Of a DNA stretch of 64,000 bases, positions 11,901 to 37,309 are shown piece by piece. Source of the stretch: Marsupella aquatica (lineage: Eukaryota; Plantae; Marchantiophyta); NCBI GenBank assembly GCA_973895155.1, contig OZ316892.1, positions 18,900,357 to 18,964,356 on the forward strand, in the 5' to 3' direction. Position 1 is the stretch's first letter. Each line of letters opens with the position of its first letter. The position numbers and the translations under genes are program-made. The notes under the pieces are model-generated. The model ran no database searches, was not told where the DNA came from, and saw only the letters and a list, made by a program, of their open reading frames with translations.

Positions 11901-12110
11901 GTGGGTACAGGCATTTTGCGACCGGATCATGCAAAATTCCATGGCAAAGTGGTCCCGAATGACCATGTAGTAGTGTTGTTGACTACAGTGATTGTATCTG
12001 ATTGTAATTTGCCATTTCCGAATAGAGACGATGATCCACCTCAGGAAATAATTGCAGATGCAGTAGGATCTCTTGTGCTCTGGCCATCAGAGTGTGTTAG
12101 TCTGCAGTGA
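8940..12110 (+). CDS. CACTA TnpA-like multi-exon gene with C-terminal Tnp1/En/Spm-like domain
   Basis: Series of GT-AG bounded exons; PPPSLELDQWTQLI..F....Q.KSE.MSNAR (TnpA-like); last exon GTG....KFHGKVVP...VVVL...LPFP..DDPPQ...DAVGSLVLWPS. Confidence 0.75.
9705..9780 (+). repeat. 18-bp tandem repeat (x4) encoding PGRGG(T/I/R)
   Basis: CCAGGCCGTGG(G/A)GG.... repeated in a TnpA exon. Confidence 0.85.
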
Positions 12111-15200: not shown

Positions 15201-17084
15201 TGCACGACAGCTTTTGATCTTGTTGTCTCCTAACCAAATTTCTTCCACTCCCTTCCACGATTAATCCTCCATTCCACGACCGATCTGCGCCTCAACAGCC
15301 AGGAAATTACAGAGTTGCACCAGATGTTGGTCCGCCCTCGATTTTCAGTTCCAGTTTAGGGATTCAACCCAACTCCTATTCAGACCACACCAATCACTGA
15401 GGGAAGAGCTTTCCACAGCACCAAGCTTCAGCCCACCATAGCTCTTCGCCAAGCTTCCTTTCCGTTCGCGCTTTGCAGATGCACGCCCACACTCCAAGCA
15501 CCTGACAGTCCAATTTGTCTCAAAATTAGCATTTTCTAATTTTTGGGGTCATGAATTCATGAAGCTTTCGCCACCTCCACTTCAGGAATCCAGGAAGGTC
15601 GTAACCCTTCATGAATTCATGAAAGGGAATCAAGTATCATTTTGAAAGAATCTAGTGAAAAGTCAAAATTTGGGCCAAAAATAACCAATACCATGGGTAA
15701 TAGAAATACAAGAAAAACCAAGAAAACCCCTAAAAATAGGGGTCATCAAAAACATTTTGGTTGCAATTGAATAGTCTCCAAAAACCTCAAAGAAAACATG
15801 GGGTAAAAATGACCAATGCATTACTGATACACTATCTTAAGAGTTTGGCATGAAAACATATGCTAAAAGTAAAAAATAAAATTATGAGAAGCCTCACAAT
15901 ATTTCAGGAGAAGACTTCACAGGAATGAATTAACCAAGTCTGCAAGAACTCTAATGAGTATTAGAAACCTGAAAACATAAGTAAACCTGTGAGATTTTGA
16001 GAAATAATAAACTATTTGTTCATGAAAGATTTCTTTCCTTGCCACTAATTCCTAATGAAGGGCGTGGCCCTTTTTCTTATTTTATTGCTAATTAAGTTTT
16101 TGAGTTATTTCCAAAATCTATAAAAGGGGCTTCGTATTCATGACTCTATCTCATTTCTATTTTTCAGTTTGAGTTCATTTGGTGTTCTAGGTGTTCCCTT
16201 GTGAGTTTTGTGCAATTTTTGAAATGGCAGCCTGTTATGAGTCAGACGATTATTTGGATGGTATTTCGGATGATGTTTCCTTCCCGGATTGTCCTTGTCC
16301 TGTTACTTCTCCAGATGCTCCTAGTAAAACCACTATTTTGGAGATGCTTCCCCCAACTCAATGAGTAAGTTGAAAGGAAAGGCTCTAAGTGTACCAAATA
16401 TTCAGCAAAAAGTATTTGGTCCTTGCCTTAGTGAGCACTCTGACTCTTCGGACTCATCTGAGAGTACAAGTCCCCCTGGCCGTCAAGTATTATCGAATCC
16501 TTCTCAAAGGGGGGTTAAATTGGGTGTGCGTTCTGTAGGCCCTCAACATAGTGGAGAGCTGAAAAAGAGGACTCATGAATTCATGAAGGCCAGATCTGGA
16601 GATGTGCCAAAAAGGCCTAGTGAAAGCCCAAAAGTGGATTTTTGTGCACTCCGGGAAAGTTGTGGTGTGCAACATGCAACAATGAAAGAGAGTGAGTATT
16701 CTCGTCCTACATCTTTCAGATTTCAAGAAGGAGTGAGAGTGGAAACAAGGAGGCCGCTTGGAACTGAGACTAATTCAAACAAGGAGAGGATCAATTTGAG
16801 AAGATCTCCAAGGAACTTTGATCATTTGGCTGAGGTTGGAAGTGGATCTAAGTAGATATACAACAAGGGCAAGAAGAAGGTCTTTGAGGAGATTCCAAAC
16901 AAGAGGCCAAGAGAGTCAACCGAAGGTGGTTTCTTTGGGAATTCAGATCGAAATCGATCAAACTCACTCCTTTTGAGAGTGAAGGAAGAGCCATTGAGTC
17001 CTCAAGGGCCTGCTCGAGGGCGGGTGAGGAGGGGTTTGTCTACATACCAACTTGATAAACTTGTGGATATATCTTCTTCAATCG

Positions 17085-18010: not shown

Positions 18011-20961
18011 TCTGAGAGTGATGGAGAGCTTGCAGAGAGAGTTATGATGGCTAATAAACGACCGTCAAATCTCAGCTTGTGTGAAACAAAGATGACAGAG
18101 GAGGATATCAAGCCGAACATTGGTATTGAGTTCTTGGTTGAAGTCTTTTTTTGAGACTCGTGTGGAGACTCTACCAAATAAAGATGTTTCACATTTGCCT
18201 GATAATTATTCCAAACTAGAAGTTTGGAAAATATATGATTCAAGCTATGTGATCACTGATGAGTCATCCAAAATATCATATCGGCAATTTTTGAAAGTAT
18301 GGTCACAAGACTTTGGGCATGTGAAGATTCCTCCTGTGAATCGTTTGAGTGCTTGTGCGAACTGTGAAGAATTCAAAACGATTCGAGACAAAGGAGTCTC
18401 GGAAACTGAAAAACGTAAGTCATTTTCATTTTTGTTGTTTTGAACATGTCTTTGTATTAGATTTGTCAGGAAATCAATTGAGTAATGGGTAAACATTAGG
18501 AATGAATTTCAAGCTAACAACTTTGCTCTACCATTTTTGGATTGATTGCAGGGAGAGGAGAAATAATGTTACAAAAACATCAAGAACAACAATCGAAAGA
18601 GCGGGAAAAACTAGCAAAGCATCGAAAGAAATGTTTCACAAACCCAGAAAAATATTTGCGAGTTGTGATAGATGGAATGGATCAAAAAAAGACTAGATTA
18701 CCCCATTGGCCACGTCCTCCAAAATCCGTTGATGAGTCCTGTTTAATCCAAATGCACGTGGTTGGTTGTCTTCTTTTCCACGGAGCACTATTTTCTAGAG
18801 TGTTCCTTAATTATCCAATTCTCCATAATGATGGAAATCTTACCATTACTATTTTACAAAGAGTATTCTTAGAATATCAAGAGAAGTATGGGGGCCTTCC
18901 ACCAGTTTTTTAACTTCAGCTTGACAATACAAGTAGGGAAAACAAAAACAATTTACTTTTCACATATCTTCACATGCTGGTACAAAAAAAGGTATTTCGA
19001 AAAATCAAACTTGGATTCCTCTTAGTTGGACACACCCATGATCAAATAGATCAGATGTTTAGTAGGTTCTCAAAAAGGCTTGGAAGATTTAAGGCCTTTA
19101 CCTATGATAGTTTATGTAAGATTATTCAAGAATCTTACCAACCCCAACCTGAAATTACCCTTTTAAATGAGACATATGATTTTCGAAAATTTTCTTTCTC
19201 AAAGCCTGCTTTGATCAGAGAAAGGATACGAAATGTTACGTTTCATCACCAATATAAAATTTCTTTTGCTTGTGAAGATGATCAAGTTCCAACACAATGG
19301 GGGAAGAAATTTTCCACCGACATGGTTTGGAAACCAGAAGGAGGTGTTAAATTGTTGAAAGAAGACATGCCACCAAAGGTGATTGGGTGCTCTGATGGGA
19401 TGCCACTTATCAAGAAAGGAGACAAGAAACGAGATGACGGAAGGGCGGGAAACCAAGCTCATGTATCATCTTCAGGAAAAATGACGTTGTCCGAAATGGA
19501 TGATTGTTTGAATGAAATTCAAAAAGGTATATTTGCAGCTCAAATATTATTCTCGGAAGAAGAAGTTGTTTGGTGGACTTCTTTTTTTGAGGAACAAAGA
19601 GAATTCAATCGATCTCTCTTGCTTGAAGAAAGACCTTTGATCTCTCCATTTGAATGGCCCAAGGCACAAGGGGATGCAAATGTTGAAGCTCATCTCGGAG
19701 CTGAACCTCTTACAACTATATTGAATGAGGAAGAAATTGAAGAGAGAGTGTACGGTCCAACTAGAGAAATTTATGTTGGTCCATATCGAAATCAAGAAAA
19801 GATAGATGCAGAGAAGGAGAATATGGAAGGTGATTTTTTGGATTTGGAAATCAACACATTTATTTCTGTGGCCGGAGAGAAGTCTGAATCATTTTGGGTG
19901 GCTAAAGTAGAAAAAATTGTTCTTCGCGATGAGGCTCACATCCCAAAGATTATCTCAGTTTTGTGGCATGCAGCAAAGAAAGGATCCGACCCTTGGAAAG
20001 GAAAATATCTGCCAGAAGTGTTGAGTTACGAGAAGAAGAAAAGTGGACGAGGCAAGGGAACCTTGAAACCAGTTTGGTTTTGTCAAGACCTTGATCTGTC
20101 TTCAACTACGGTCTTTGCATATAATTTTATGCTAACAAGGTCTGATACTCTTTACAAGAAAACAATAGATCGTATTAAAATACGACTCTCAGAATTTCTC
20201 AAGGAGAAGCAAGACCAAGAAGGTGAAGGTAGCATAGTTAGAAATTATCAACAAGAAACTTCAATGGAAGTTCCTCTAGAAATGAATGGTAGGAATTGAG
20301 ATTTACCAATCTTAGCAATTTTGTCAAACAAGTGTATTTGCAATTTATTATTGTTTGAGTTGGTGGCAAACCATAAATGTTGTGAACATTGATGAATTCA
20401 TGAATTCATGAATCATATTGAAAGAAGTTTGACATTTTGAGAATGTCCATCGTGTGGCCAGTCTTGTTTGAGAAATTCAGAAAACAAAATATTAACTAAA
20501 AGAGGTACCTTCTAGAATCCCATATATATTTGAAAGCTTTTGATATACTCGTCATTCCCTTTGTGTGATCAAATGATGGTTTTTCTTGGTAAATGAACCC
20601 TAGGATCCTACAAACTGCAAAATAATTCAGAAATCTTGACCCTCTTTTGAAAACTTTACATATTTGGGATGTCAATGAACTTTAGGGTGGTATTTCAAGG
20701 GTGAATGTGTTATTGAGCCGATTGAATGTGTGCTAGTAATAAATTGCAACATTGAAATATGTGGTATTTGCTTATTAAATGTTTCCCACAACCAGTTTTG
20801 TGATTTTGAGTAGTCAAAATGATGCCCTATTTTGTGTTTTTTTGCAAGTTTTGAGTTCTTGCCAAAAAAAGAGCTTGTTTTTAGATGCATTTTTTGGCTT
20901 TTTCCATATTTTCAAGGTTTTTTATCATTAGTTCTTATACATTGGGCTTATTACCCATCCT

Positions 20962-21708
20962 TTAAGGCTTCGTGTTAGAGGAGTGTCCAATTCTTGCAGG
21001 CAAGCATGCAGGGACTATAACGTTCATATCACATATTCTGTTGACATCAGATGAGGGACTTCCTTTCATGCTGCAAATAGTCCAATTCCTAGTTCAAGTG
21101 GCATATGCCATGACTATTAATACTTAAGGCATGTGGTTAGACTTTAGAACATGTAGGATTGCAACTTTCTAAGTTGGTTTTCAGCCATGGTCAATTGTAT
21201 GTTACCTTTTCAAGAGCAACATGTCCTACAAGGATAAAAATGTTACTTCCAGATAGTGAAGATGGAGAAGCAAAGTTGACCAAAAATGTTGTAGATGATA
21301 AAGTTCTCAACTAAATCAATATATAAAGACCTCATCATGTGTATTCTCTTCAAAATATTTTATCACTTCTAAGTGTGAATGTTATTCTTTCACTTTTGTA
21401 TTTAAAAACATCTTTTACTTCATAGTGTCTTTGACTAATGACATATTTTACTTAATATCGACCATATTGTACTTACAACATTGTTATACTTAGTTACCAA
21501 TTTTTTTCTCCACGCCTTTTTTGCCAATGACCTCCTGGCCGACACGACATCTTTTCTCTCCATGACCTCTTGGCCGACACAACATATTTTCTCTCCATGA
21601 CCTCTTGGCCAACACAACGTTTTTTCTAGACTCCACAATCTCTTGGCCGACACATCATCTTGGCGCCCTACATAACTTCTTTTGTGCAACGCACGGGTAT
21701 TGAGCTAG
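20962..21708 (+). mobile_element. Helitron 3' remnant: PIF1 helicase C-terminus plus 3' terminus
   Basis: Degenerate translation ILAGKHAG..LPF...QF.VQVAYAMTIN..LEHVGL..VFSHGQLYV.FSRAT..TKNVV (stop ~21313); hairpin GTGCAACGCAC followed by CTAG|T at 21705-21709. Confidence 0.9.
21520..21670. repeat. ~40-bp tandem repeat (about 4 units) in the Helitron 3' region
   Basis: ATGACCTCTTGGCCGACACAACATCTTTTCTCTCC-like units. Confidence 0.85.
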
Positions 21709-22679
21709 TCCTATACTAAGGCTATGGTAAGCTCAGAGGGGTCACTATATGGAGGGCCATACATCACGTGCGACATTTTAGGGTTTGACCCCCCTAACTT
21801 ATAAGTGAAAAATATTTTTTGCAAAGCCCTTTCTTTCTTTCAAATTTGTCAGTTTTTATTAAACCACAACTCGCCGTATTTAGGGCTCCGCATTACGCGG
21901 AGTGCTCATACCAGAAGGTATCGTGTATTGTCTGCCTCCCGTATTTCTGCTGCGCCTCCTAATACCCTTCGGATACGTATTTGCAGCTGCGCCTACACTG
22001 GACCGTTCGATTCAGTATTGGACTCAAATTGTAGATCTCGACGAGATCTACAACTGGGAAAAAACAGCATCCCAAAATACCTAATATTTTGGAAGAAAAG
22101 AATCAAAAACAAACGCTGCGATCCCATTGGTTCGTATGTTTTTTGAAATTCAAAATAATCCGGGCAGCTGCAGCGGGCAGATACGGGTAGTCACAGTACA
22201 AAATGAGGGTTGATAATGGACGTATGTAAGATCTGTGCATTCATTACATAGCATGTGAAGGGATTGTCAAGACCATTACAAAAGGCTGTCCTTACGGATG
22301 GGAATTTCAAGAAGGATGGGGAGCTTTCGAGAAGAATCTTGGCTCATAAGATATTTGAAAAGCAAGAAGCTCCGTGGCAATTTCTGCCCCATATGAAGGT
22401 TCTAGTATAAATCATGTATATTGATACATCCATCAGATGCAGGATCCTAGGGCTCATATGGATGTATGAAATTCTGAACTGGATGAGGATACGGTATAAA
22501 AAGCCTGGCTGGTGAACTAGTGAACAGTCTTAGTTGTTGTCTCTTTAGGGTAGTTGCAAATTCCCCTTCTCATCTTATGTTCTGCGCTTGTATTTTGTGA
22601 AAGGACCTAAAATTGCCTTGATTATGTAGAGGATGGGGCTTGGCACCTGGTCTATGTCCTACCTTTTCCCTACTAATCT

Positions 22680-23145
22680 TGTTACCTGGTGTTTTTTTTA
22701 CTTGGACAGAAAATCAGTTTTTTGCTTATGTCAGTGGCAGTGTATGAGTGGCAGTGTATGAGCATCCTATCTTTCCTCTAGTAATTTTTTAGGTGTTTGT
22801 TTTACCAAGGCAGCACATCAATTTTGTACTTTGTTTACCAGAGTGTTTGGTATGGAGCGCCCTACCTTACTCTAGTAATCTTTTTAGGTGTTTTTTTACT
22901 TAGGCAGCACATCAGTTTTTTACTTTGTTTACCACAGTGTATGGGATGGAGTGTCCTACCTTTCTATCGTAATCTTTTTAGGAGTTTTTTTTACTTAGGG
23001 AGCACATCAGGTTTTTTCTGTGTTTACCACAATGTATGGGATGGAGTGTCCTACCTTTCTATAGTAATCTTTTTAGGTGTTTTTTTTTACCTCGGCAGCA
23101 CATCAGTTTTTTTCTTTGTCTACAACGATGTATGGGATGGAGCCT
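22680..23145 (+). repeat. ~83-bp tandem repeat (5-6 units) ending at the transposase start codon
   Basis: TAGTAATCTTTTTAGGTGTTTTTTTACTTAGGCAGCACATCAG...GTATGGGATGGAG units. Confidence 0.9.
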
Positions 23146-26100
23146 CCTGATCTTCCTAGTAGACGTCGTAAACGTCCTCCTCAGGGTGTTGGTCCTTCAA
23201 GACCAAAGTACCCAAGTGATGACATGGAATATAGGAAGAGGACAAGACCAGTTGCCAAGCCACCAATCCGAGTCCCATTGGAGCGATGGGATGAGTGGGA
23301 GGGTCTTAGGGGTTTATTGGGGGATGGCCCAAATACAACACATGCTACAGTTGTTCACTGGTTGATTGACACTTGTAGAGTTCAAATTGATGAGTTGAGG
23401 ATGCAGGGAGCAAATGAGGCAGCAACAATCCAGCATGATGCATTGGCACCTGGGGCAGAGACACCAGAACCATCCGCTGCACCCGACACCATCATGTTTG
23501 ATCTCAATTCAGACCTGGTTGAGGAGGAGCCAAATGTAGGTTCTTCTGGGTTATTTGCCTTCCTGCCTCATTTTCATTGGAAAGATTTATCACAATTTCT
23601 GATGTTGTGTCCAATGAAAGTCACACAAGTCCCTATGTCTCAGGTTCAACTTTGTTTGTGTAAGACTATGTATTTCTCTTACATTGTACATTGTAAAAGC
23701 CTATATATCCAAAATGGAATTAACTACAACACTAGTCTAACAAATGGATTTTGGTCTGAAGTCATGGATTTCAATGGACAACTTTTCTCTGTTTTTTGTA
23801 TTGTATCAAATTGAAGTCACACACTTCCCTTCTGCTTAGTGAGCCTAACAATTGCGGTAAATTTTCAGGACTCTTTACATGAGCAGCAGCCCACACATTA
23901 TGAGGGAGGAACGGGGGGAGGACATGATGTTTTCAGGACTATTTATATGAAATTGTTAGATGTATCATGCTAATTATATGTACCCAAATTATATAATTAG
24001 CACTAGAAAAATATTTCTCAAGCACATTGTTATCTCAAACTCCAACAATTACTTGACATGTCATGCAGGATGACAACAACTCCATCCGGCCAGAGGACAT
24101 GGTAGAGTCCTTTGGAGTGGAAGAGGAGGACATCATACCTTTGGGTGGATCTGATGACCCAGATGTTTTAGTTGCTCTAGGGGTTGAGGTATGTCATGCC
24201 TAAAAGCTTTTGTTCAGTTTTTATTGCAAATGTCACATTTTTTACTTCTAACTGATCTGCTTGTTTTGTGGTTGCAGACCTTGAGCTCGGATCTTCATGT
24301 TGAAGATGATGCACCGTCCATTATTCATGACTCTCAACCTTTACCAACACAGGTCATAGATTCTCAAAGCGATGTAGTACTAGATTGTCAACCTCCAATT
24401 GTCCCTCCTTTTGCTGCAGATCCTATTAGAACTAGATTTGCAGCTCGTGTTCCAGCTAGAGTTGGTTTTCTAGAGTGTCATTTGATACATACTTTTGTAG
24501 ACCAACTACTTCCTACATGTCATACATCTGGATGTCCTCTCACTCCTCGAGTAGAGCATATTCATGAATTGCAGCAACTATGGTCCATTCGTATTAGTTG
24601 TGGTCAGGAAGGTCATGGGTGGACTTTCCTTACTGGTGAGATGGAGCCAGGGAGGGGCACACCTATGATTACACCTATGTTATATCACTCCACATTGTGC
24701 ATTGGCTTGACATATTTGGCATTGGCCTCAGTCACTTCACATTTAGGATTACATGTTCCTAGTCCACATCATTGGCATGATTTCCAGACTGGCCATGGAC
24801 GACCTAGAGGAGGATGGATTGCGGCAATGAAGGGCCAGTGGGAGGCAGAGAAAAGGGTGTTGTGGCAAGAGTTGAAGGATGGTCTATAGTATAGGCGTGA
24901 CCACAATCCCCATGAAGCAGGTTAGTGTCAAGTTTATAACATACTTGAGTGTTCATTACTCTCAACCTTTTTTTGGGACAATATAATGACTTAGTAAATT
25001 ATTTTGTGGGTTTTTACAGATCCTGGTCTAGTTGTGTATCTAGATTGCAGATGGGACTCATCCAGGAGTGGTTATCATGGGGCTGTTTCCATTATCAATG
25101 TAGAGGATAATAGGGTCATTGAAATGGTAACTACTACTAGAAAGGAGGAGGCCAATTCATGGTACCATGAGGAGAGGGGAACCAGAAAGGCATTGGAGAG
25201 ACTTCGAGATAACGGTATTGTCATAAAGGAGGCCATCCATGATGATAATAGGACGGTAGATACTGTTATTGATGACTTGGGGATCAACAATCAGAAAGAC
25301 ATGTGGCACAAGGCCAAACATTTGTGCAAAAAATTTGTGGAGAAGGTGGTCAAGGCCACCTTTCTTATCAATGTGGATATTGATCTTGCCACAACTAGGT
25401 CGGCCTTGACAGCTGCCACTTGCAAGAATTTGCAAGATTGGTTGAAAGCCCGCAACGAGTACAGGGGTTGCTCCAACCTGAGAAATACAGGGGTTGCTCC
25501 AACCTGAGAAAGGATGCGTTAGTCCATAAGGTGGCAGATATTAGAGGATTGCCAATGGAGACATTGGTCCCTGTAGTGACCCGTGGATTGAAACATCCAG
25601 AGCTTGTGCAACACCCAAGTTGAAGACTTGGTTTTATGTTTGTTGTTGTCGTTGCAAAAATACGTAAGTATAATTTTTCTTATTTGAATTTTTTCAGGAT
25701 TGTTATTTTATTTTTCACAAGGTTGCTATCTTGTATGTTTAGTGTAAGGCTGGAGAACTGGACAATATAATTATTTATAGATGCTCTTTTGTTGTGCAGA
25801 GGAGGGAATAGTGAGTCATTGGCCTATGAGCTAAGCAATTGTGCCTATCATTGGGCTGGTGTTCATACAAAATGCTTGACATTGCCTGATCGACCATGTC
25901 ATCACATTCACGAGGAGGGAGCTACACAGCTAGACTTATATTATGAGAGAGGTGTGCAACTAATTTATGTCCATATTTTATTTCATATGTTGTCAATAAC
26001 CTGACATTATTATTTGCCAACCAAAGACTGACTATTCATTTTCTGTTGTAATGCAGATTCGCCCACTCACCTGGCCATGAAGAGTTTCATGGCCAAGTAC

Positions 26101-26400
26101 ATAAAGCCAACGAAGATGTCATTTTACACTATGGCTAGGGAGAATTTCATGTCAGAAACTTTTCATTATGTGATGGGAAAGTATGCCACCAAACGGATTC
26201 ACTTTCCTGCATCTCATGAGGCACGACTATTTTGTGCTGGACTAGACTGGAATGAAAATATTCGGCGCCCTGTTTGGAAAGTGTATGACCGTGTACCTGT
26301 GAACACTGCCGTAAGAGATAGGCCTGCCCGCACTCGAGTCATGGTTGCAAGGAGCACAACTTGGAAGGATCAAATAGGCACACATATCTATGGAGTTTGA
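23137..26400 (+). pseudogene. Kolobok-type DDE transposase, multi-exon, inactivated
   Basis: YLDCRWDSSRSGYHG (D.R.DS), SWYHEERG..KAL..L...GI.I....HD, KDMWHKAK, HWAGVH..C, SETFH.V..KYATKR..F...HEARL..A.LDWNEN parallel the Kolobok transposase motifs. A 26-bp duplication causes a frameshift at ~25460-25510; stop at 24887. Confidence 0.75.
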
Positions 26401-26827
26401 TATTAGGTATGAGGTACTTCAAGTTTATTTGTGCTTCAAGTTTATTTGTGTTCAAGTTTATTCTGTTGAAGTGCTTTACTAGAACAAGCTCTCATGTATT
26501 TTTGTTATGATGCAGATTACCAAGTCATGGGTAACCAGTTATAGGTGGACTTCATCTCATCTTTGCCTTATATGTGGCTCCAATAAACAATTGTGTTCCT
26601 TCTTGTTGGAGTTTGCTAATAAAGGCTTGTTACATGAAGCTGGTGGCTAAGGTTCCATGGTCATGATGTGTCTAAACTTATACATTATTATTTCTTTCCC
26701 TGTTTTTATTCTTGTTGTTTCTGGTCATGATTGGCAATGCCCTTGTGGAACAAGATTAATCCATGTATGACCTGTGCCTGGACTTGGAGCCTTTTAGTTG
26801 GCAACTAAGAAGAGGTTTTTCAAAATG

Positions 26828-26831
<4 letters not shown>

Positions 26832-26862
<31 letters not shown>
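26832..26862. repeat. (TA)n microsatellite
   Basis: TA run between the convergent transposase and KolX-like genes. Confidence 0.95.
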
Positions 26863-26867
<5 letters not shown>

Positions 26868-27019
26868 ATTGTATACAAAATCTGGGCATAAGCGTGCCTC
26901 AACATACATTCAAGTTTGACCATTTTGCCTTGTACACATAGGCTGGTCATGCTACTTATTCCTCCGATATAAAATGGCTCCATCCCACTAGGCATGCATG
27001 TGTGGATGACTATAAAATT

Positions 27020-27412
27020 TTAGTTCTCATGGAACCCTACAAACACTTCCTCCTTGTCATGCCAAGCCTCCTTGATGGCTTCCTCCACAGGTGGAGGTAG
27101 TCGGGTTCTCTCAACAAACCCACAAACCCAAGCCAAGTGGGTGTAAACCTGAAATCGTTTTTTCTTGTTGACGGTTTCAGTGAAGCTATAAGCAATACAC
27201 ATCTGAAGATCCTCAAGTGGCACTGCTGGATTCAACTGCTCGTGACAATCTGCAATTGCCTTGAATAGCAAAGGCTCATCAAACTCAACCTCTAGCAAGC
27301 TCGTTATCTCAGACAATTGAGTAGAACCATATGTCCAGGTCAACCAATATGTGCCAAGATCATGATCAGTCACCGTCAAGGTGGCGGTGCTCCTCGGCTG
27401 ATTATTGGCCAT
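27020..27412 (-). CDS. KolX-like small protein, copy 3 (intact)
   Basis: C-terminus KKRFQVYTHLAWVCGFVERTRLPPPVEEAIKEAW...FVGF resembles the KolX/P2X7 C-terminal R..(I/L)P.CV...IR..(F/Y)P...Y.GF motif. Confidence 0.6.
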   Translation of the reverse strand: MANNQPRSTATLTVTDHDLGTYWLTWTYGSTQLSEITSLLEVEFDEPLLFKAIADCHEQLNPAVPLEDLQMCIAYSFTETVNKKKRFQVYTHLAWVCGFVERTRLPPPVEEAIKEAWHDKEEVFVGFHEN

Positions 27413-27528
27413 TCTACAAAGCAAAAGACATAGAAGTGAGTACACAAAAATAGTATACTACATATTATTTTCCATTGAGTTGCACACTAAGGTAAGGATT
27501 ATTATTTGTGCAATACATAGAATTTACC

Positions 27529-27927
27529 TATAAATATCTAGGAGTGAAACCCCAAAAAGCTTCTTCCGCTGATTGCCAAGTATTCCATATAGCCTCTTCT
27601 AACATATCAGGGAGCCTTCCTCTTGCACCCAAGTCACAAGCCCGAGCCACATAGCTATGAACTAATGTCTGATCTTTTTTGGTGCGGTTATTTTACACAC
27701 CAACTATAAGCAGCCATGCATAAATATTCCTTGATAGATACTATGGGGTTGAGGAGGTAATGGCATTCCCGCATAGCATTGCAAAATACAGGAAAATCAG
27801 ACTCAATGTCAGCCATGGCAAAAACACGTTGTCCATGGGTGTTTGTTGGGTGTTCGAGCCAAGATATAGTGTGTGTGCCATTGTCAAGCATGTGTAGGGT
27901 GATGACTTGCCTACTTCTACCTTCCAT
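27529..27927 (-). pseudogene. KolX-like small protein, copy 2 (frameshift near 27690)
   Basis: MEGRSRQ..ISW..IESDFP.FCNAMRECH.LLNP..C.AAYSWC, then in another frame VARACDLGARGRLPDMLEEAIWNTW..EEAFWGF. Confidence 0.6.
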
Positions 27928-28207
27928 ATCTGCAAACAAAACTAAGGTGAGAATTGTCAACCAATATGCAACACCATTTGCATGTATTTCTGGTGTAAGC
28001 ATTTGAAAGAACCAAAACCATGGAGACTACAAAGATGTTAGCATTACTATTCAAAAATGGTTCACATCATATGAGCCTGAATGTCCCTCATGCCTTGTTT
28101 TACGATTCTTCATCCTTCCCAAGTGTTTAGTATGATATAGTTGCTATTTTCTAGTAAAATATAATGTTACTACAAATAACAAGAAAATATCATAGGCCTA
28201 GTTTCTA

Positions 28208-28585
28208 TTATTTCTCTCCCTCATCAGCCCAAGTGGCAAGTATGACATCTTTCACTGGACGGGGTAGGGTTTGTCTACTTGTTGATCCACACACACAGGC
28301 CAAGTGTACACCTACTTGGAATCTTTTCCACCGCATCAACCTCTCACAATAACTATATGCAGCACATATCAAAAGCTCATCCAAGGGAGCAATATGATTA
28401 AAGGCAATATGGTAAAATTGGATAACATTGCACCACTCAGGGAAGTCTAATTGAATTTCTGCTAAGGTGGTTGTACGTTGGATGAGAGGGGCATCAGAGG
28501 GAGCGTTCAGCTCCCGCCAACTCAAATGGTAAGCCCCATGATTGAGGTTAGTCACAGTCACACGGACACCTCGCTTGGGATTCAT
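28208..28585 (-). CDS. KolX-like small protein, copy 1
   Basis: G.Y.LSW..EIQLDFP..CAAYSYCE...KRFQV..HLACVCG...R..LP.PV...I...W, alignable by eye to copies 2 and 3. Confidence 0.6.
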   Translation of the reverse strand: MNPKRGVRVTVTNLNHGAYHLSWRELNAPSDAPLIQRTTTLAEIQLDFPEWCNVIQFYHIAFNHIAPLDELLICAAYSYCERLMRWKRFQVGVHLACVCGSTSRQTLPRPVKDVILATWADEGEK

Positions 28586-29519
28586 GTTGCTGCATCCAGA
28601 ACAATGAGTCAAATATGTGTGTCAATATGTTAGACATAGAGAAAAACAAGTAGAAGGGGCAGATTACTTTGAGCTGAATTCTCCCAAGAAGGGTCTTGGA
28701 AGACCAGCATATACTTGGCTTTTGAAGATGAGGGTATACCGAGAGGTCTATTGGCATTCAAGGTAGACCTGGCGTCAGAAAGACAAAAATACACTTGGTT
28801 CTTGAATATGGAAGTATATCGAGAGGTATACTTGCGTTCAGGCCAGACAAAACTTTCTGCCACTTCCTTAGTAAATTGTGGACAATTTGCATAGATTGCA
28901 GGAAGACTACGATGTTGAGACGGGAGCGCGGAATTGCGAAATCAGGGGGGACTGTCAATTGATAGCGGTGTCAATGGAGAGGACTGCCCATCGAGAGGGC
29001 AATCGACACTGCACCTTGATGTAAGTGTAAGCAGAGCAATAGGGTCAGCATCCCTTCAATCCATTGGACTACGTTGTGTGGACGTTCGTGGATCCTTTGG
29101 GCAGAAGCAATGCAAATCAAGACACAGCCTGACCAAGAAGGATTGATAACTACAATCCACAACGCACAATGACTAGTAAGCATCGTCGGGGATGAAATGC
29201 TCAGCTCATGTAGAGCTTTGGATTATTTCAAGCAGTCGGCCTTCCAATGGCGAGACAGATGTCAACCAGCAAACAGATGCTTAGTTCTCAAGTTCTCACT
29301 AACTCACAAATACACCCGCACACAACCTGCATCCCAAGAATGAGCCTGAGAAAGCTGGTGGCTTCAAGACCAGCATACCAAGAAAATACCCTGCGCTCAT
29401 GTAGAGCTCCGACTAGGTGCTCTGAAAAATTCCAGAGCTAATAAACGTACACAAACCGGGGGATGACAGAAGCATTGTTGGTTGAGTTATCCTCACAGCG
29501 ACCAACATCAATTTGGAAC

Positions 29520-31215
29520 TCCATTGGAAAAGTCAAATGATAAGCCACAATAACATATATTGTGGTTGTTGTGTCCATAGAGAATAAGACAGGTGCTGCA
29601 AAGAAGAAGTATGAGAACCTGGCAAAGACTCGCTGTAATTTAGAGGCAACAAAGTTGCAGTCTGTACATGCAACTTGTTTGACAGAGGGCAGTCAACCAT
29701 GTTTGGATGAGGATGACATTGGCAAGAGAGTGGATGATATCAATGTTGGGGCAAATGAGGATGTCAGCAACCATGACAATGATACCATTGAGCCAGATTC
29801 ATGCTATGTAGATCTTGACTCCATTGCAGAGATAAATGATTTGCAAAATGTATCATTCTCAATGACAGGTGTGCCTCTTGTTGAGATAAATCCAACCAAA
29901 GAGTTAGTTGGTATGACACTCCCAGGTAAGGAACCTGCTACTGTGACAGTCCTAACAGAGGAACCTACTAAGCCTAGCTTCACTACTGTGAAGAGAGGAA
30001 GCATGCGCACACGAAGCAAGTCTGCTGGTGGGACCAGAGCCACGTCAAAGGTTTCATACAAACCTCCAAGAATGGTGCTGGCAGAAAGATCTAAGGTGGA
30101 AGTGGGGAAAGCACCTAATGCTGAGGGACAAAGTGGCTTGTTAGCTGTTGATGAGAGTGAAACACGAGTAGGATTTGGCAGAGTCCAGGTTGGTTCTACA
30201 ACGTTCCATGGCAAGAGGATTCCCCCAGGTTATTCAGTAGTGTTAGTCACATTACTAGTGAAACCTAAAGCTGAAGCTGTCCTTCCCATTCCAAACACAA
30301 ATGATGATCCTCCTCAGAAGACACTTGGAGATGCTGCAGGTTCTTTGGTATTATGGCCAAGCAAGTTCATAGAGGATCCATAACAATGTCATGCCATTAT
30401 TTGTTTGTAGTGTGAGTCATGTTATGTACATTTTAGATCTCAAGAAGCAGTACAAGAATCATGTCCTCTTGGAGATTCATAGTATCATGCATGTGCTTTC
30501 AATTATCTCATCCTGTAGTCATCAGATATGAGTTCCTATTTTGTCTGAATTACATTGATCACATTGTAAACTATTCCATTGGAATTCAAATGATCTTCAT
30601 TTTTTAGCAAGATTATGATTCTGTTTAATTCTTATGAATGTTTTATGTAGGATCTGCTTATATGATGCTTTGTTTCATGTGGATGTCATTCATGCTATAT
30701 TCATTTCTTGTATTCAATGTGTTATATTTCTAAAGTTAGAACATAGAGTGCTCTCTCTCCTTATGAACTGTCCCTTTGTGTTCATTAGTCATGGTTACAA
30801 CTTGCATGTGAACCTTATTAGTTATAAACATGAGTATATAGAGTCCCAAATGGTTCTGTTGTGTGACACGGGCCAGGGTCCCCATTGGTCTATCTTGTGA
30901 CACTAAATGGTCACAAGCTAGTCGTTGTTGAATGCGGGTAAGTCATGTATGTGACTTACCATGTGACTCGTTAAAGTCATATTGCAGTCACGTAGAAACA
31001 AGGCTGGACTTCACAATAAAGTCATAGATCAGTCACAAATGGGTATCAAGCAAGTTGCAAAGCCCAGTATCAATAGTGACTTCCATTTTTTGGTCTCAAC
31101 TTTTGCAACTCCAAGGGTCACAGCGTGGGTGACGTCACGTTGAGTCACAATGAAGTCACATGAGCCAAAATGAGTCACATATTGCGGTCTCAGTTCACCT
31201 CGGATTCTTCTAGTG
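29520..31215 (+). mobile_element. Second CACTA element, right-end fragment (last TnpA exon 29562-30383, subterminal repeats, TIR)
   Basis: FHGKRIP..YSVVLV..LPIPN..DDPPQ..GDAAGSLVLWPS is paralogous to 11517-12110; dense GTCACA/TGTGAC repeats at 30860-31190; terminus CGGATTCTTCTAGTG at 31215 joined to Copia RNase H. Confidence 0.85.
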
Positions 31216-34200
31216 ATCTCAATCACCTCACGGATGAAGTGATAATGAATATCAATGTGCTTTGTCCTGGCATGGAACACAGGGTTCTTAGCCAGATGCA
31301 AAGCACTTTGACTGTCACACAGCAACACCGGTCTTTCAGGTGAAAGACCCAGATCACTCACCAATCTCCATAGGCAGATCTACTCCTTGGTTGCCTCATA
31401 GACAGCCATGTACTCAGCCTCAGTAGTAGACAACGCAACACAAGATTGAGTTGCCGACTTCCAGCTGATACAACCTCCACCCAGCATAAACACATAGCCT
31501 ATAGTAGACTTCCTGTTATCCAAGTTACCAGCATAATCTGAATCTACAAAACCTTCCAACTCTAATGTAGAGTCTGCTTTACCGTCAAATAAGATCCCAC
31601 AATCTAAGGTACCTTTCAGATACCGCAAAACCCACTTCACTGCTTCCCAGTGAAGCTTACTAGGATTTGCCATAAATCTGTTCAAAATGCTAATAGCATG
31701 GGCAATGTCAGGTCTAGTGCATGTCATCGTATACATCAAACTACCCACAACACTATCATAGGGAACATGTTTCATCGTCAATCTATCACTCTCACTAGAA
31801 GGGCAATCATTCTTTGAGAGTTTAAAGTGGGAAGCCAATGGAGTACCAACTGGTTTTGCATTCTCCATTCCATACTTGGCAAGTACCTTCTCCAAATACT
31901 GCCTCTGAGACAACCATAATTGCCTTTGCTCCCTGTCACGATGAATCTCCATCCCTAGTATCTTCTTGGCCTGACCCAAGTCCTTCATTGAAAACTCCTT
32001 ACTCAGCATTGCTTTCAGATGGGCAACATCAGACTTATTCTCAGCTAGGATCAGCATGTCATCCACGTACAGTGCCAGCACAATGTAACCAAAGCGTGAG
32101 TAATTCTCCACCTCCTTCATGTAGATACAACAATCATGCTCACTCCGTGTGAACCCCTGAGATAACATGAAGGAATCAAAACGCTTATTCCATTGTCTGG
32201 GACTCTGCTTCAATCCGTATAATGAGCGCAAGAGCTTACACACCAAGTGTCTGGTCTTCTCGTCAATAAAACCTGGAGGCTGAGTCATATAAATCTCCAC
32301 ATCAAGCAATCCATGCAGGAAAGCAGTAATTACATCCATCTGATCTAACTCAAGATCATAGAATGCCACAATTGCAAGTAAAACACGGATAGTAGTGAGT
32401 TTGACAACTGGTGAGAATATCTCCGTGTAGTCCAAGCCCTCCTTCTAGGTGTACCCTTTGGCCACAAGGCGTGCCTTGTAAGTGCCATCCTGCTTCTTCT
32501 TGTACAACCATCTACATGGAACCAGTGTCTTTCCGCGAGGCATGTCAGTCAAGCGCCAAGTTGAATTCTTCTTCAAAGAATTCATCTCCTTCAACATCGC
32601 CTCCATCCACTTATCCTTCTCTGGAGAGGCCATAGCTTCTTCATAGCTAGAGGGATCTCCATCTTCAGTGAGCAAAACAACACCGGGATCATCGTCATGC
32701 TCAACAACGTGAACACGAGGATCTGCAAAACCAAATCTATCAGGGGGTTGGCCAAAATTGGCCCTGCTGGAGTGCCTTGGTTGAGGAACTACACCTCTAC
32801 CAGAGGGACCAGCAGCTTCCTCATCACCACCAAGCTCCACCGTAGTGGGTTCCTCCACCTGTTCCTCCTAAATATCCCGGGGTCTTGACAACCATTCTTC
32901 GTCAAAAACAACATTTCTGCTCACAACTGCCTTGCAATCGACAGGATCCCACAATTTATAGCCCTTCTGCCCAGGACTAAAGCCTAGAAAAATACATTTC
33001 TTAGACTTGGGATCCAACTTAGACCTGTGTGTCTACTCAATGTGAACATAGGCAGCACAACCAAAAACTCAAAGTCTAGAGTAATCAGCAGGTCTCTTAT
33101 ACCACAACTCAAATGGAGTTTGCATCAACTTACTACTGTGGGGTATCGCATGCATGATAGTAAACAGGAAATAGGTTTACTGGTACCAGCAAAAATTTTC
33201 CTGTTACCAGTAAAAAGTTACTGTTACCAGGAAAAATAACCATGTCAAATTTTTTTCTAAAAAGTCAAATTTTCCAAAAAAAATTAAATTACAATATTTT
33301 TTGGCTAGCTTTGGGCGCTAGCATTACCAGCGCCGGGCGCTAGCACAAAAAATAAAAAATTTGAAAAAAAAAACTTTTTTTTTCAAAAAAAATTTTCAAA
33401 AAAAATTTTCAAACAAAATTTCAAAAAAATTTCAAAAAAAATTACCACTCATTTTCCTGTTACCAGTTTCTGTTTCCTGTTACTATTTGCTGTTTCCTGT
33501 CATTTGTAAATACCCCCTACTGTGCGGTGATAGATTGTAGACATATGCAGCTTGGTTGACAGCTTCAGCCCAAAAGTTGTTGGGCAACTTAGACTTACAA
33601 AGCATGTTGCATGCTTTCTCCAGTAATGTCCGATTCAACCGTTCTACAACTCCATTCTGCTGCGGGGTCTTTGGTACAGTGTAATGACGCTTGAGGCCAA
33701 AGTCCCGACCAAATTGATCAAACTCATTGGACTTATACTCGCCACCGTTATCGGACCGAACACACTTCAACTCCTTCCCAGTTTGTAGCTCCACCATGGC
33801 TTTCCACTCCTTGAAGATCTCAAAGACTTGAGACTTCTCCTTCATGTAGTACAGCCAACACATTCGAGAGTAATCATCTACAAACGTCACAAAATATCTG
33901 GCTCCACCCAACGACGGCTCCGGCGCTGGACCCCAAACATCCAAATGTACATACTCAAGAATCTCATGAGAATGGTATGAACTAGAACTGAAACTCACTC
34001 TCCTCTGCTTGCCGAAGATGCAATCTTCACAGAAAGAGAGTTTACCAGATTGAGCACCTTGCAACAAATCTCTGTTTGCCAAGGCTGCCAATCCTTTACC
34101 ACTCAAGTGCCCCAACCATGCATGCCACAAATCTATGGCTTGTGTGCGACCAGATGTTGAGGGTGCTTCAATTGAAGCAGCCGAAGATGATTCTGCGGCA

Positions 34201-35481
34201 GATGTTGTTGCATCCAAACATTCCACCACAGAATCCACATGCTCCACTCTAGGAGCAATGACATCTCCTTCCAAGATGTACAAATTATTCTGCCGTAGTG
34301 CCTTAATCAAAGATATATCATCTTTGACGACAAACAGCGCACCATCACGTGCAATGAATTGAGATCCACCAGCTTCCAAAGCACCAAGAGAAATCAAGTT
34401 CTTAGAGATGTCTGGTATGTGCCTGCTGACTCTCGTCAATGCTCGCACAACACCGTCAAACATCCCAAATTTGATAGTCCCCATGCCAACAATCGCACAT
34501 CGGACACCATTTCCAATTTCCACAGTACCGGTACAAGGTTGGTAAGTGGAGAAATACGATTGCGTTGGACACACGTGATAAGAGGAACCCGAATCCAACA
34601 TCCATTTATTGTCATACACAGAATTCATAGCACCAATACATAGCACTTCAGCAGCATCCTCATTATCAGCAATCACAATATCAGCTGACGATGAGGACGC
34701 ACCATTGGAAGCAGGACGCTTCTGCTTCGATAGAGAAGGACAATTCCACTTGGTGTGACCCTTCTCATGGCAATGCCAACACTGAACTTTCTTACTACGG
34801 GACTTAGATTTAGATCTACTATGTGATTTAGATCTAGACTGATCCGTAGTACGCTTTGTCGATCTGCCTCTAACCACTAAGGCAGCAGACTCATTGTCAC
34901 GGCCAGAAAGTTGTCGCTTGCGCCATTCTGCAAGAATGGTAGCCTTTACCTCATCCAGCTTCAACGTAGACTTGTCATGTGTGATAACCGTCACCAACGT
35001 CGAATAGCTCTGAGGAAGCGACATCAACAAATGCATCGCAAGATACTCATCGGTCAACTTGTCTCCCGTCGTGGCCACCTCGTGCACAATCTCATCAAAG
35101 AGACTAAGGTGATCACGCATGTTGCCACCCCTTCAACTTCAACCTGAACAGCCGCTCCAAGTGATAAATGCGAGTAGTCAACGAAGTACTCTGGTATAGC
35201 TCAGTAAGCATATCCCAAATTTTCTTGGCGTTACGATCCATCCCCAACACGTTCTTGAGAATATTGTTTGCCAAGAACAACTCAATTGTGCTACACGCTT
35301 GCACCGACATGTCCTCCCACTCCTCATCTGTTAGATTCGAGGGTTTCACTCCAGTGAGGGTCTTCTCAAGACCCTGTTGGATCAACACATTGGTCACCTT
35401 CCAAGTCCACAGGCTGAAGCTGACCTTCCCGTCAAACTTCTCCACCTCAAACTTTGGCGCCGCAAGCTTTCTTGAAGTCAT
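31216..35481 (-). pseudogene. Copia gag-pol polyprotein
   Basis: EKFDG, CWHCHEKGHTKWNC, LDSGSSYH, VRSDNGGEY, TPQQNGVVER, YKARLVAKG, LYVDDM, DSDYAG, HARTKHIDI; frameshift ~35130, stops at ~32445 and ~31380, MITE insertion. Confidence 0.95.
33140..33516. mobile_element. 377-bp MITE inserted in the Copia integrase region
   Basis: Imperfect TIRs GGGGTAT.../...ATACCCC with direct repeat CTACTGT on both sides. Removing the insert and one repeat restores NLSPHSSKLMQTPFELW in frame. Confidence 0.9.
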
Positions 35482-37017
35482 TGATGCTGCTACAAACACA
35501 CAGGAACCACACAACCAAAATAGCTCCACCCAAAAATTCACCAAAAAATGAAAGTTGGCAAAAGTGGAAATGAAATGCACCACCGCGTAGCCTACAAGGT
35601 ACACTACCAAGATCTGAAAACGATTTGACGAAAAACTTCTTCAGCAAAAACTTATTCAACTCGGACCGGAGGGGGGTCAAAATGGTCGTTTTGACCCCTG
35701 TCGGGTATCTTAGGTCCTGAAAAAATTCTGCAACAGCAACGCACAAATTGATTTCACTAGACCGTGCTCAACTCCCTTGAGCATCCCCTTGCAAGATCTC
35801 TCGAAAAAATTCTGCCTCGACGACCGCCAAATTCGGAAATTTTGGCCAAAATTCAGCTCTCTGGAAAAGTATCTTTTGGAGGGAATAAAAGTACAGTCGA
35901 ATTCTACAGCAGAAGGCACCCGGTGATGACACGTGTCCAGCTCAAAAGAAACCCCAATGCGTGAAAAGAAAAACAGATGTTTCCTGTGTAAAAGTCACCG
36001 GAGGTACTCGCCCCACAGACTTCCACAAAAAAAAAATTCTCGTTCGCACATTTGTCCCCCTTGCGCCACCTGTTGCCGAGAGCATAGGGCCTCGCACCCT
36101 CTAGGCTCCTCCTTAAAGTGCTTCCGAACCCTCCTGGCTCATCATAGGGCTTCAAGCCCCTTTTAAAAATCTCCCAAAAAAGAGGGAATTAATTTCTCCT
36201 CCCCTCCACTCCTTAAGTACTTAGGGCCTTGTGCCCAGGTTAAATGCTCCCAAGAGAAGGGAGTGCCTCGCTGCCCCTCTCCTCCTCTTCAAAGCTCTTT
36301 GGGCCTTGTGCCCCCACCTTTACGTACCTGCACAGAGCCTTGTGCCCTATTAAAGAGCTCCTGAGAGGAGGGAGCTACAAACTCCCCCTCCCCTCTCACT
36401 TTAAGACTGTACCTGTAGGAACAGTCGTACCTGCACAAGCCGCCTCGGGCTATGCCTCCTTAGGGCCTCGTGCCAAGAGCTCCCGTGGGAAGGGAGCCTC
36501 GTACGTGCCAGGGAATACCGTCCGACGCACCGTATAAGGTTGCGTGCGGCGACCACAATGAGTATACGAAAGAGAAGAAATTTGCAACAACTGCCCCACA
36601 CGACACGACCTTTTTACAAAGAAAAAAGCACCCCCGATGACCCCACAAGTGATTGATCTAACCACTAAGAGCCATAGTCGAGAGTTCCAAGCACTTAATC
36701 AAGCAATACATAAGATAAGATTGTTCCACACTCGCCGGATGAAACATTGTGAAACTTCCACCACGATGTAGTGCTCGTCGATGCGCATGATAAATCGCCG
36801 GACTGTCCTCCCGACAGTTTTCTTACACACTGTGACACATCCGATACTTCAACGAAGTTTCAATCGGGAAACCGTCACCACTTCCAAACACAAAACGATC
36901 AACGCAAAATGGCTAGTGAAATGATCATGCAATCGTTGATGACGATTCAATCTTCCACCACGATCCAACACACAAACGCTCTCACCACTGCCCAGGCCAC
37001 CGAACCACGAACACAAA

Positions 37018-37029
37018 GCTCTGATACCA
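37018..37029 (-). other. Primer-binding site complementary to initiator tRNA-Met
   Basis: TGGTATCAGAGC on the minus strand, 2 nt from the LTR end. Confidence 0.95.
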
Positions 37030-37031
37030 CT

Positions 37032-37309
37032 TGTAAGAAACTGTCGGCTCTGGACTAGACAGCAATGCGGAAACATGAGAGAGACTCACTCAATCAGATG
37101 CTACACCGATGAAACACCCCGAGTGGAGAAACTTCTGAAGGCTCCATAGCAAATGAGAGTACATGTGAAGAATGAGGGAGAGAGTTCTCTCCCTCCAACC
37201 TATACCCCCCAAGGGGGCCAAGATGAGTGGGCCTAAACTAAGCAGATCTTATCCTAATGTAATCCAGGGCCAAGCTAACTAAGTCGGGAACTCGAGTCAA
37301 TTCCTAACA
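37032..37309 (-). repeat. Copia 5' LTR (278 bp)
   Basis: TGTTAGGAA...TTTCTTACA inverted termini adjacent to the PBS. Confidence 0.85.

What the first reader, a model, noticed from the sequence alone, without database searches (positions are those of the whole stretch)
21737..28585. Kolobok-type transposon in a land plant with a triplicated KolX-like accessory gene
Seen: a spliced DDE transposase with Kolobok-like motifs is convergent with three ~125-130-aa paralogues that are strongly diverged from one another yet keep AYS, R..LP..(V/L)...I...W and, in two copies, a terminal GF. Known: Kolobok elements, described mainly from animals and protists, encode a convergent KolX protein related to the P2X7 cytoplasmic domain. 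Inference: a little-described plant lineage with old KolX expansion and possible subfunctionalisation.
Basis: partly seen in the sequence, partly recalled or inferred. Interest (0 to 1): 0.8.

Follow-up and report, generated by a model that had tools for sequence, protein, structure and literature searches.

The report
Land-plant Kolobok transposon with TCP-like domain
This is a broken copy of a multi-copy jumping gene, likely of the Kolobok kind and likely in a liverwort, that faces three tandem small genes likely related to the tail of the animal P2X7 receptor; its cutting enzyme starts with a predicted DNA-binding domain whose best single-domain match among solved structures is the plant TCP transcription factors, whose origin is unknown.

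Summary
Observation confirmed, with corrections. A six-exon DDE transposase (+, 23137-26400) converges on three paralogues (-, 28585-27020) that are 32-38% identical. This copy is dead: the transposase has a stop and two frameshifts, and the middle paralogue a stop and a frameshift.

The transposase carries the Kolobok signatures. It groups with Riccia, Chara and Closterium proteins, next to an animal Kolobok lineage; Calypogeia fragments are 62-69% identical. Its relatives have a SAP insertion. In Calypogeia a relative of the small gene has an accession number consecutive with transposase pieces. Diverged copies keep both paralogue junctions.

KolX homology rests on exact motif spacing and gene position. 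Pfam, PDB profile and fold searches did not find P2X7, and the zinc cysteines are absent. Subfunctionalisation is not shown. No TTAA site and no right end were found.

New lead: a profile of the transposase N-terminus matches TCP15 (E 0.002), so TCP factors may descend from this lineage. Searches found no paper on Kolobok in bryophytes; Repbase could not be checked. New variant of a known kind.

The parts
21735..21863 (+). Candidate left end (starts with purines; holds GGGTCA at 21739 and TGACCC at 21786). A high-copy repeat end, 86% identical over 127 columns to the right end of a MITE at 40487-40803. Ownership by this element is unproven.
   Evidence: (loose ends before 21738 in 4 of 4 runs)
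22760..23148 (+). 95-bp tandem repeat, 4.1 copies, running into the transposase start
23137..23535 (+). Transposase exon 1 (start and donor inferred)
23194..23400 (+). Predicted ribbon-helix-helix DNA-binding domain, TCP-like
   Evidence: family profile vs PDB: TCP15 E 0.044, E 0.0018; Pfam TCP E 0.012-0.021 in three relatives; the window's own stretch hits no Pfam family
24069..24188 (+). Transposase exon 2 (acidic linker)
24278..24920 (+). Transposase exon 3; Cys/His motif upstream of the core; in-frame TAG at 24887-24889
25020..25663 (+). Transposase exon 4: first D (25043-25045), second D (25241-25243), DxxH signature (25298-25309), SAP-like insertion, HPEL motif; 26-bp duplication 25460-25511 and 10-base loss after 25614
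   Evidence: SAP hit in 10 of 30 relatives scanned
25800..25951 (+). Transposase exon 5: His/Cys motif between DxxH and the catalytic E
26057..26400 (+). Transposase exon 6: catalytic E (26155-26157) and LDWNEN motif
27020..27412 (-). Paralogue P3, 130 aa, open; closest to the family consensus
27528..27927 (-). Paralogue P2, broken in this copy (TAA 27688-27690, 4 extra bases near 27668)
28208..28585 (-). Paralogue P1, 125 aa, open, ends before the GF tail

Best explanation
This is a dead copy of a multi-copy DNA transposon, likely cut-and-paste and likely of a green-plant Kolobok lineage, whose DDE transposase gene faces three tandem accessory genes likely descended from the KolX/P2X7-ballast domain. 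Shown: gene anatomy, breaks, catalytic motifs, relatives, and paralogue junctions in diverged copies. Inferred: in intact copies the transposase dimerises and binds short repeats in the element ends (candidate TGACCC) through an N-terminal ribbon-helix-helix domain. The inserted SAP domain would add non-specific DNA contact, and the DDE core would excise and reinsert the element. The small proteins would act as oligomeric cofactors that tune or target the transposase. They keep the helical half of the ballast fold, have lost its zinc cluster, and carry a predicted three-stranded sheet instead. P3 would do the ancestral job; P1 and P2, which lost residues that the family keeps, would be modifiers or spare copies.
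For: Core motifs (D-x-R-W-D-S-S-R, HDDN, KDMWHKAK, HPEL..K, His/Cys motif, E-T-F-H, LDWNEN) align without difficulty to animal proteins such as P0121, which by eye share the motifs of Kolobok_1_MyEd, 16_CGi and 1_OwFu in Data S5 of PMC9587614. Weaker hits P0101 and P0109 show Kol0-type motifs. 137 proteins hit the core at E<=0.001. Named ones are Calypogeia, Riccia, Chara, Closterium, a Pyramimonas/Prorocentrum-labelled cluster and Branchiostoma. In a tree of 23 rows spanning D to E, one split (100/100) separates 14 rows holding the window and all named green-plant rows from 9 rows holding Branchiostoma. Calypogeia accessions CAM6099329, 332, 333, 334 on a contig of the same length are transposase, small-gene relative, transposase, transposase. 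The published ballast motif (L/I/V)P-x6-I-x3-(F/Y)-x8-G (PMC7016195) and the red-algal piggyBac KolX have the same spacing as 9 of 14 family members; shuffled members give 4e-5 per protein. Diverged contigs bridge P3-P2 (X2 record 1, 51 differences in 537 bases) and P2-P1 (X5 record 28, with a different spacer). K at the R578-like place in 11 of 14 members, but L in P1 and W in P2.
Against: No P2X7 or KolX match was found by Pfam for 11 members at E<=1, by three PDB profile searches and one single-sequence search, by two Atlas look-ups or by five fold searches. The motif was relaxed after seeing the sequences, the members are kin, and it also hit once by chance inside the transposase. The R-to-P distance is 20, not 24. 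No TTAA precedes a purine pair in 21700-23140, and no right end was found. The Pfam family that 8 of 30 relatives hit is named 'Mutator-like' (PF20700), and the tree had no true MULE outgroup. Listed differences between this copy and others are 11 synonymous of 34, against 27% expected, p 0.30. The paralogue tree is unresolved.
Confidence: 0.7

Rival explanations
1. The element is Kolobok-like, but the small genes are unrelated plant cargo and the likeness to KolX is a chance match of a short helical motif.
For: All statistical searches for P2X7/KolX were blank. Formate dehydrogenase matches the same C-terminal stretch at E 0.05-0.26, so the stretch is not distinctive. The cysteine clusters that PMC7016195 calls fundamental are absent, and the N-terminal third is a predicted beta-sheet.
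Against: The match spans R-x3-Y, LP, I, aromatic and GF with exact LP-to-GF spacing. One Calypogeia member keeps the C after LP-x. The gene sits where a Kolobok accessory gene is expected. Cys-poor KolX forms are already known in piggyBac elements.
Confidence: 0.2
2. The three copies are redundant products of tandem duplication that only raise dosage or are drifting, with no division of labour.
For: P2 is broken here. The listed differences show no excess of synonymous changes overall (P1 7 of 12, P2 2 of 13, P3 2 of 9). P1 and P2 have long branches, 1.11 and 1.43 against a median of 0.42.
Against: Copies about 10-20% diverged keep both junctions while a spacer differs, and other copies lack P2's 4 extra bases and its stop. 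Proteins only 32-38% identical are unlikely to stay open for long without selection (inference).
Confidence: 0.45
3. The repeat end at 21737 is a stray piece of a Harbinger-type MITE family and not the terminus of this element, whose true ends are lost.
For: It matches the right end of a 317-bp MITE lying inside a Harbinger element. Its depth is hundreds of times that of the sequence just inside it. The flanks fit a C-Y-N-R-G pattern, not TTAA. Harbinger elements with G-run ends and CWG targets are recalled, not tested.
Against: It points inward 1.4 kb upstream of the transposase and starts with purines. KolobokP families also lack TTAA specificity.
Confidence: 0.45
4. The transposase belongs to MULE or to a separate superfamily-level group, not to Kolobok.
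For: PF20700 is named Mutator-like. The RHH and SAP domains are not mentioned for Kolobok in the text read (PMC9587614 parts 1-5). No TTAA was found.
Against: PF10551 (MULE) hit 1 of 30 relatives, outside the matched part, which itself has a Kol0-type motif. Motifs follow Data S5 Kolobok entries, including the His/Cys motif that the paper says MuDR, P and hAT lack.
Confidence: 0.08

Closest known systems
Kolobok-1_MyEd, Kolobok-16_CGi and Kolobok-1_OwFu transposases (Data S5 of PMC9587614)
   Same: D-A/C-R start of the core, H-D second aspartate, D-x-W-H signature, HPEL..K motif, His/Cys motif before the E, E-S/T-F motif (compared by eye through P0121).
   Different: The plant clade has a 60-70 residue insertion with a SAP domain after the DxxH helix. 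The ends, target duplications and accessory genes of the animal families could not be seen.
Kol0 lineage (Kolobok-1_XT) with KolX
   Same: Two-part layout of transposase plus a small ballast-like gene; DDE and DxxH.
   Different: The core starts DxRWDSS, not DGxxDSPG. The accessory proteins lack the seven zinc cysteines and come in three copies. No TTAA was found. No THAP domain was found (THAP in Kol0 is recalled).
P2X7 cytoplasmic ballast / Nanor / PTHR36981 (PMC7016195, PMC9574498)
   Same: Spacing of the last motif cluster; an R at the R546-like place in all three paralogues; K at the R578-like place in 11 of 14 members.
   Different: The first two cysteine clusters are absent and replaced by a predicted three-stranded sheet. 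The loop is 4 residues shorter. No search scored the match. PMC7016195 did not detect the domain in plants.
Cys-poor KolX-like proteins of piggyBac-2_GrCh and piggyBac-14_PI (Data S6 of PMC9587614)
   Same: LP/IP-x6-I-x3-W-x8-GF spacing (GrCh), loss of most cysteines, accessory role in a non-animal transposon.
   Different: A different transposase superfamily; one such protein is listed per family; they keep a CxxC-PC-W motif.
TCP transcription factors (PDB 7vp6, 7vp3, 5zkt, 7vp2; PF03634)
   Same: 45 aligned positions: I-R-x-P strand, helix ending L-G-x-K, and W-L-L-x-x-A-E-P-A helix. TCP has a ribbon-helix-helix fold (bioRxiv 2022.11.22.517060, PMC9682074, passages).
   Different: Here the domain heads a transposase; scores stay below Pfam's cut-off (15.8-16.6 against 23); the DRHxK motif is replaced by YH-x-x-R.

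Membership tests
Kolobok superfamily | [quoted passage not shown] | tested here: met
   D 25043, D 25241, KDMWH 25295-25309, E 26155; aligned with relatives; feature from PMC9587614
Kolobok superfamily | His/Cys zinc-finger motif between DxxH and the E (absent in MuDR, P, hAT) | tested here: met
   HWAGVHTKC..PC in exon 5 aligns with the H..H..C..C of P0121 and P0118; feature. Metal binding itself was not tested.
Kolobok superfamily | Transposase nests among known Kolobok families | tested here: inconclusive
   Nearest non-plant hits carry Kolobok motifs. The tree is unrooted, with no Repbase sequences and no MULE outgroup.
Kolobok superfamily | Terminal inverted repeats with 5'-RR and YY-3' | tested here: inconclusive
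   The candidate left end starts with purines, but its ownership is unproven; no right end
Kolobok superfamily | TTAA target-site duplication (not kept by KolobokP) | tested here: inconclusive
   No TTAA before the candidate end or in the loose-end consensus of 4 runs; the true ends are not established
Kol0 lineage / canonical KolX | Accessory protein with seven zinc-binding cysteines | tested here: not met
   No PxWCxCx2C or LCC cluster in the 11 aligned members; no invariant cysteine (motifs)
Kol0 lineage / canonical KolX | C-terminal ballast motif (L/I/V)P-x6-I-x3-(F/Y)-x8-G | tested here: met
   9 of 14 members with relaxed letters, including P2 and P3; 13 of 14 match up to the aromatic residue
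Kol0 lineage / canonical KolX | Ballast fold or profile match to P2X7 | tested here: inconclusive
   Not listed in Pfam, PDB profile or fold searches; models have mean pLDDT 76 from 11-13 sequences
MULE (MuDR) | PF10551 MULE core | tested here: not met
   No hit for the window pieces; 1 of 30 relatives, outside the matched part
TCP family | PF03634 above the curated cut-off | tested here: not met
   Best bits 16.6 and 15.8 against 23; 2 of 13 stretches hit weakly. It resembles TCP and is not a member.
TCP family | Ribbon-helix-helix dimer binding GGNCCC-type DNA | not testable with these tools
   No model of this domain was made; the fold is inferred from profile matches

The most novel reading that the evidence does not exclude
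The plant-specific TCP transcription-factor domain, whose ancestry is unknown, was domesticated from the ribbon-helix-helix domain of this green-lineage Kolobok transposase, and TCP's GGNCCC-type site descends from the TGACCC repeats in the element ends. The same lineage carries the first ballast-derived proteins reported in land plants, tripled into possible hetero-oligomers.
Probability: 0.3. Interest if true: 0.9.

Novelty: new variant of a known kind. Interest (0 to 1): 0.68.

Why it matters
The defining paper lists Kolobok in animals, fungi, algae and protists but not in land plants (PMC9587614). A Pfam-based screen of 1007 plant genomes included Kolobok and found recently active clusters in seven other superfamilies only (PMC12973397). 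The ballast domain was not detected in plants (PMC7016195). This lineage would extend both to liverworts and streptophyte algae, with a new domain plan (RHH + DDE + SAP) that Pfam barely detects. If the TCP link holds, it gives a testable origin for a major plant developmental regulator family, in the way WRKY-type domains are linked to MULE transposases.

Tried and rejected
One 19-kb element from 21737 to 40800: rejected, because a Harbinger Myb-like frame runs up to both sides of 40487-40803 and that segment has its own imperfect inverted ends.

Right end in 28586-31215 or 37311-39200: best local scores 37 and 32 in the first region against shuffled means of 35 and 33; 32 and 30 in the second.

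Loci around relatives: metagenome contigs, viral contigs and prokaryote genomes gave none. No whole genome is held for the window.

P2X7 was not listed in any fold search. Best Z 5.2 (rmsd 3.3, 74 aligned) for the whole model and 5.7 (rmsd 3.2, 74 aligned) for the C-terminal model, both common helical arrangements. The representative set may hold a P2X7 form without the ballast. Atlas gave no usable hit.

A homotrimer prediction for the small protein never ran because the queue was full, so there is no verdict.

No RNA holder was listed; this says nothing on expression.

Contig depth was higher over coding bins than over non-coding bins (medians 1843 against 263 in X3; 14 and 9 bins). It was not used as evidence, because depth is not copy number and single-gene relatives can map there.

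A first motif pattern had a wrong spacing and matched nothing; it was corrected.

Single-sequence PDB search with P0123 did not find TCP. Ankyrin repeats outscore TCP on summed score, but each repeat alone has E>=50. The N-terminal profile matched animal P0118 only weakly (pairwise E 0.039) and P0086 not at all.

Paper searches were swamped by papers without the word Kolobok.
Full report
Observation. The + strand holds a six-exon transposase gene, 23137-26400, with GT-AG introns of 533, 89, 99, 136 and 105 bases. Read with X at its breaks it gives 758 residues and aligns over 728 columns to a Riccia protein (E 5e-105). Three paralogues lie on the - strand: P1 28585-28208, P2 27927-27528, P3 27412-27020. 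They score 158-194 pairwise against a shuffled maximum of 48-51 and are 33-38% identical. No fourth copy is in the window. This copy is dead. The transposase has a TAG at 24887, a 26-bp duplication and a 10-base loss after 25614 relative to other copies. P2 has a stop and 4 extra bases that other copies lack.

Host. An ovate-family gene lies at 45421-47607, among Copia, CACTA and Harbinger elements. The closest named relatives are Calypogeia fissa proteins at 62-69% identity. A liverwort is the likely host (inference).

Transposase. No Pfam family hits the window pieces meaningfully. The core finds 137 proteins at E<=0.001. I looked up names for 27 of them. The named ones are Calypogeia, Riccia, Chara, Closterium, one cluster labelled both Pyramimonas and Prorocentrum, and Branchiostoma; the rest are unnamed or 'hypothetical'. 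Of 30 longer hits, 10 match SAP, 8 match PF20700 'Mutator-like' and 1 matches PF10551 MULE outside the aligned part. Alignment shows the animal hits to be colinear with the plant ones except for a 60-70 residue SAP-bearing insertion between the DxxH helix and an HPEL motif. By eye these animal hits share the motifs of Kolobok_1_MyEd, 16_CGi and 1_OwFu in Data S5 of PMC9587614. For the tree I kept the 22 of 145 stored proteins that span the first D to the E. One split (100/100) separates 14 rows, with the window and all named green-plant rows, from 9 rows with Branchiostoma. Data S5 also has Kolobok_1_KlNi (the name suggests Klebsormidium; my reading) and a Micromonas entry. Both carry a CxxC after the first D and belong to other lineages.

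Small genes. Three searches found 12 outside relatives: two Calypogeia clusters and ten unnamed proteins. None came from a named Riccia, Chara or Closterium record, so the accessory gene is so far shown only for part of the transposase clade. In Calypogeia, accessions 329, 332, 333 and 334 of one series are transposase, small-gene relative, transposase and transposase; adjacency is inferred from the numbers. The model has a three-stranded N-terminal sheet and five helices, mean pLDDT 76. PMC7016195 gives the last ballast motif as (L/I/V)PSC(C/S)x3IRx2(F/Y)Px5Y(S/T)G, and the red-algal piggyBac KolX has the same spacing ending in GF. With relaxed letters, 9 of 14 family members match through GF; shuffled members match at 4e-5, and 0 of 145 other stored proteins match. 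The letters were relaxed after seeing the sequences, and one chance hit fell in the transposase against 0.05 expected in the window. Against homology: Pfam, PDB sequence searches, Atlas and fold searches never listed P2X7, and the zinc cysteines are absent. I put KolX descent at about 0.75.

Triplication. Contigs from public runs show related copies at 80-95% identity. One bridges P3 and P2 (X2 record 1: 27058-27598, 51 differences, 20 gaps). One bridges P2 and P1 with a different 127-base spacer (X5 record 28). No listed piece spans all three genes, and X1/X2 may be the source sample. Each paralogue's best outside match (53%, 43-48%, 40-43% identity) beats its neighbours (32-36%), which fits an old duplication or fast divergence; the tree is unresolved. 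P3 keeps the family Y after R-x3, the K at the R578-like place and the GF tail. P1 has G, L and no tail; P2 has H and W. That pattern suits one canonical and two altered copies, but it does not prove a division of labour. Of the 34 listed coding differences between this copy and others (from the 40 rows shown of 519, plus one more), 11 are synonymous against 27% expected, p 0.30. The P2X7 ballast is a trimer in solution (PMC9574498, passages), so a three-part hetero-oligomer is a tempting idea, but it is untested.

Ends. 21738-21863 is a very high-copy repeat end: 20-68 contigs per run leave it at 21738, with a consensus ending in GGG. It is 86% identical to the right end of a 317-bp MITE at 40487-40803 that sits inside a Harbinger Myb-like gene. 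The flanks of the three ends read CTCAG, CTTGG and CCCAG, not TTAA. No right end was found. To the right lie a probable CACTA 3' part and a Copia element. Whether this end belongs to the element is about even.

New lead. The transposase N-terminus (23194-23400) is conserved across the clade. A 9-sequence profile hit four TCP structures at E 0.044-0.33. A 13-sequence profile, whose members were chosen by the family's own profile, hit TCP15 at E 0.0018 over 45 positions, the best single-domain match among 177,635 sequences. Three relatives hit Pfam TCP at E 0.012-0.021, below the cut-off, and one also hits the VapB-antitoxin family. TCP is a ribbon-helix-helix fold not otherwise described in plants (bioRxiv 2022.11.22.517060, passages). 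Its ancestry is called unknown and its core site GGNCCC (PMC9682074, passages). The candidate end holds TGACCC twice in 129 bases against 29 times in the window; this is one mismatch from the core site and only a hint. An animal relative aligns weakly in the same place (E 0.039), which would make the domain older than TCP. Capture of a host TCP by the transposon, or separate descent from prokaryotic RHH proteins, remain open.

Mechanism. Shown: anatomy, motifs, relatives and decay. Inferred: cut-and-paste transposition by an RHH-DDE-SAP enzyme, with small ballast-derived cofactors. GDP binding is doubtful, since only the R546-like residue is kept in all three paralogues.

Literature seen. PMC9587614: main text parts 1-5 of 6, supplement file 3 parts 104-106 and two term searches. 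Its Figure S6 (KolX alignment) and Figure 4 are pictures and could not be seen; they bear on lineage naming and KolX conservation. Passages only: PMC7016195, PMC9574498, PMC12973397, PMC9682074, bioRxiv 2021.09.26.461848 and 2022.11.22.517060. Searches: Kolobok+KolX 1 paper; Kolobok+liverwort and Kolobok+Marchantia 1 review each, listing only; Kolobok+bryophyt 0; Kolobok+transposon+plant 112 papers, 40 listed; TCP origin from a transposase not evident in the listings (15 of 322; 3 of 3). Repbase, Dfam and subscription journals were not searched and may already hold such families.

Verdict. A real, decayed member of a likely undescribed green-plant Kolobok lineage: a new variant of a known kind. 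Interest 0.68, raised by the TCP lead and limited by the unscored KolX homology and missing ends.

Noticed in passing
window 40487-40803: 317-bp MITE with two unlike ends sharing a G-run GGGTCAC terminus, inserted in a Harbinger Myb-like gene; its flanks (CTTGG, CCCAG) are not a clean duplication.
   Followed up: partly
window 39186-41500: Decayed Harbinger element: DDE_Tnp_4 fragment on + converging on a Myb-like gene on -.
   Followed up: partly
window 21200-21709: Helitron-like 3' end (hairpin then CTAG, motif recalled) with 35-bp tandem repeats; high copy; ends 29 bases before the candidate left end.
   Followed up: partly
window 18096-20299: DUF7869 transposase-like frames with TCATGAAT repeats at 15549-16588 and 20390-20413; resembles Sola-type transposases (recalled, untested).
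   Followed up: no
window 29544-31215: Frame similar to 11499-12110 of the CACTA element at left, GTCACA-rich repeats and a TAGTG end at 31215, inserted in the Copia element: a probable CACTA 3' part whose 5' part is not evident.
   Followed up: partly
window 31216-37310: Copia element on - with one LTR (37033-37310) and primer site; holds a 376-bp insertion (33141-33516) flanked by an 8-bp duplication CTACTGTG.
   Followed up: partly
window 1876-8762: NSD-like PHD-finger and BRCT frames directly upstream of a CACTA transposase; may be element cargo.
   Followed up: no
window 45421-47607: Intact-looking 728-aa ovate-family gene, the one clear host gene seen.
   Followed up: no
cluster of P0042: Near-identical transposases are labelled Pyramimonas and Prorocentrum; one label is probably cross-contamination, so the prasinophyte record is unsure.
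   Followed up: no
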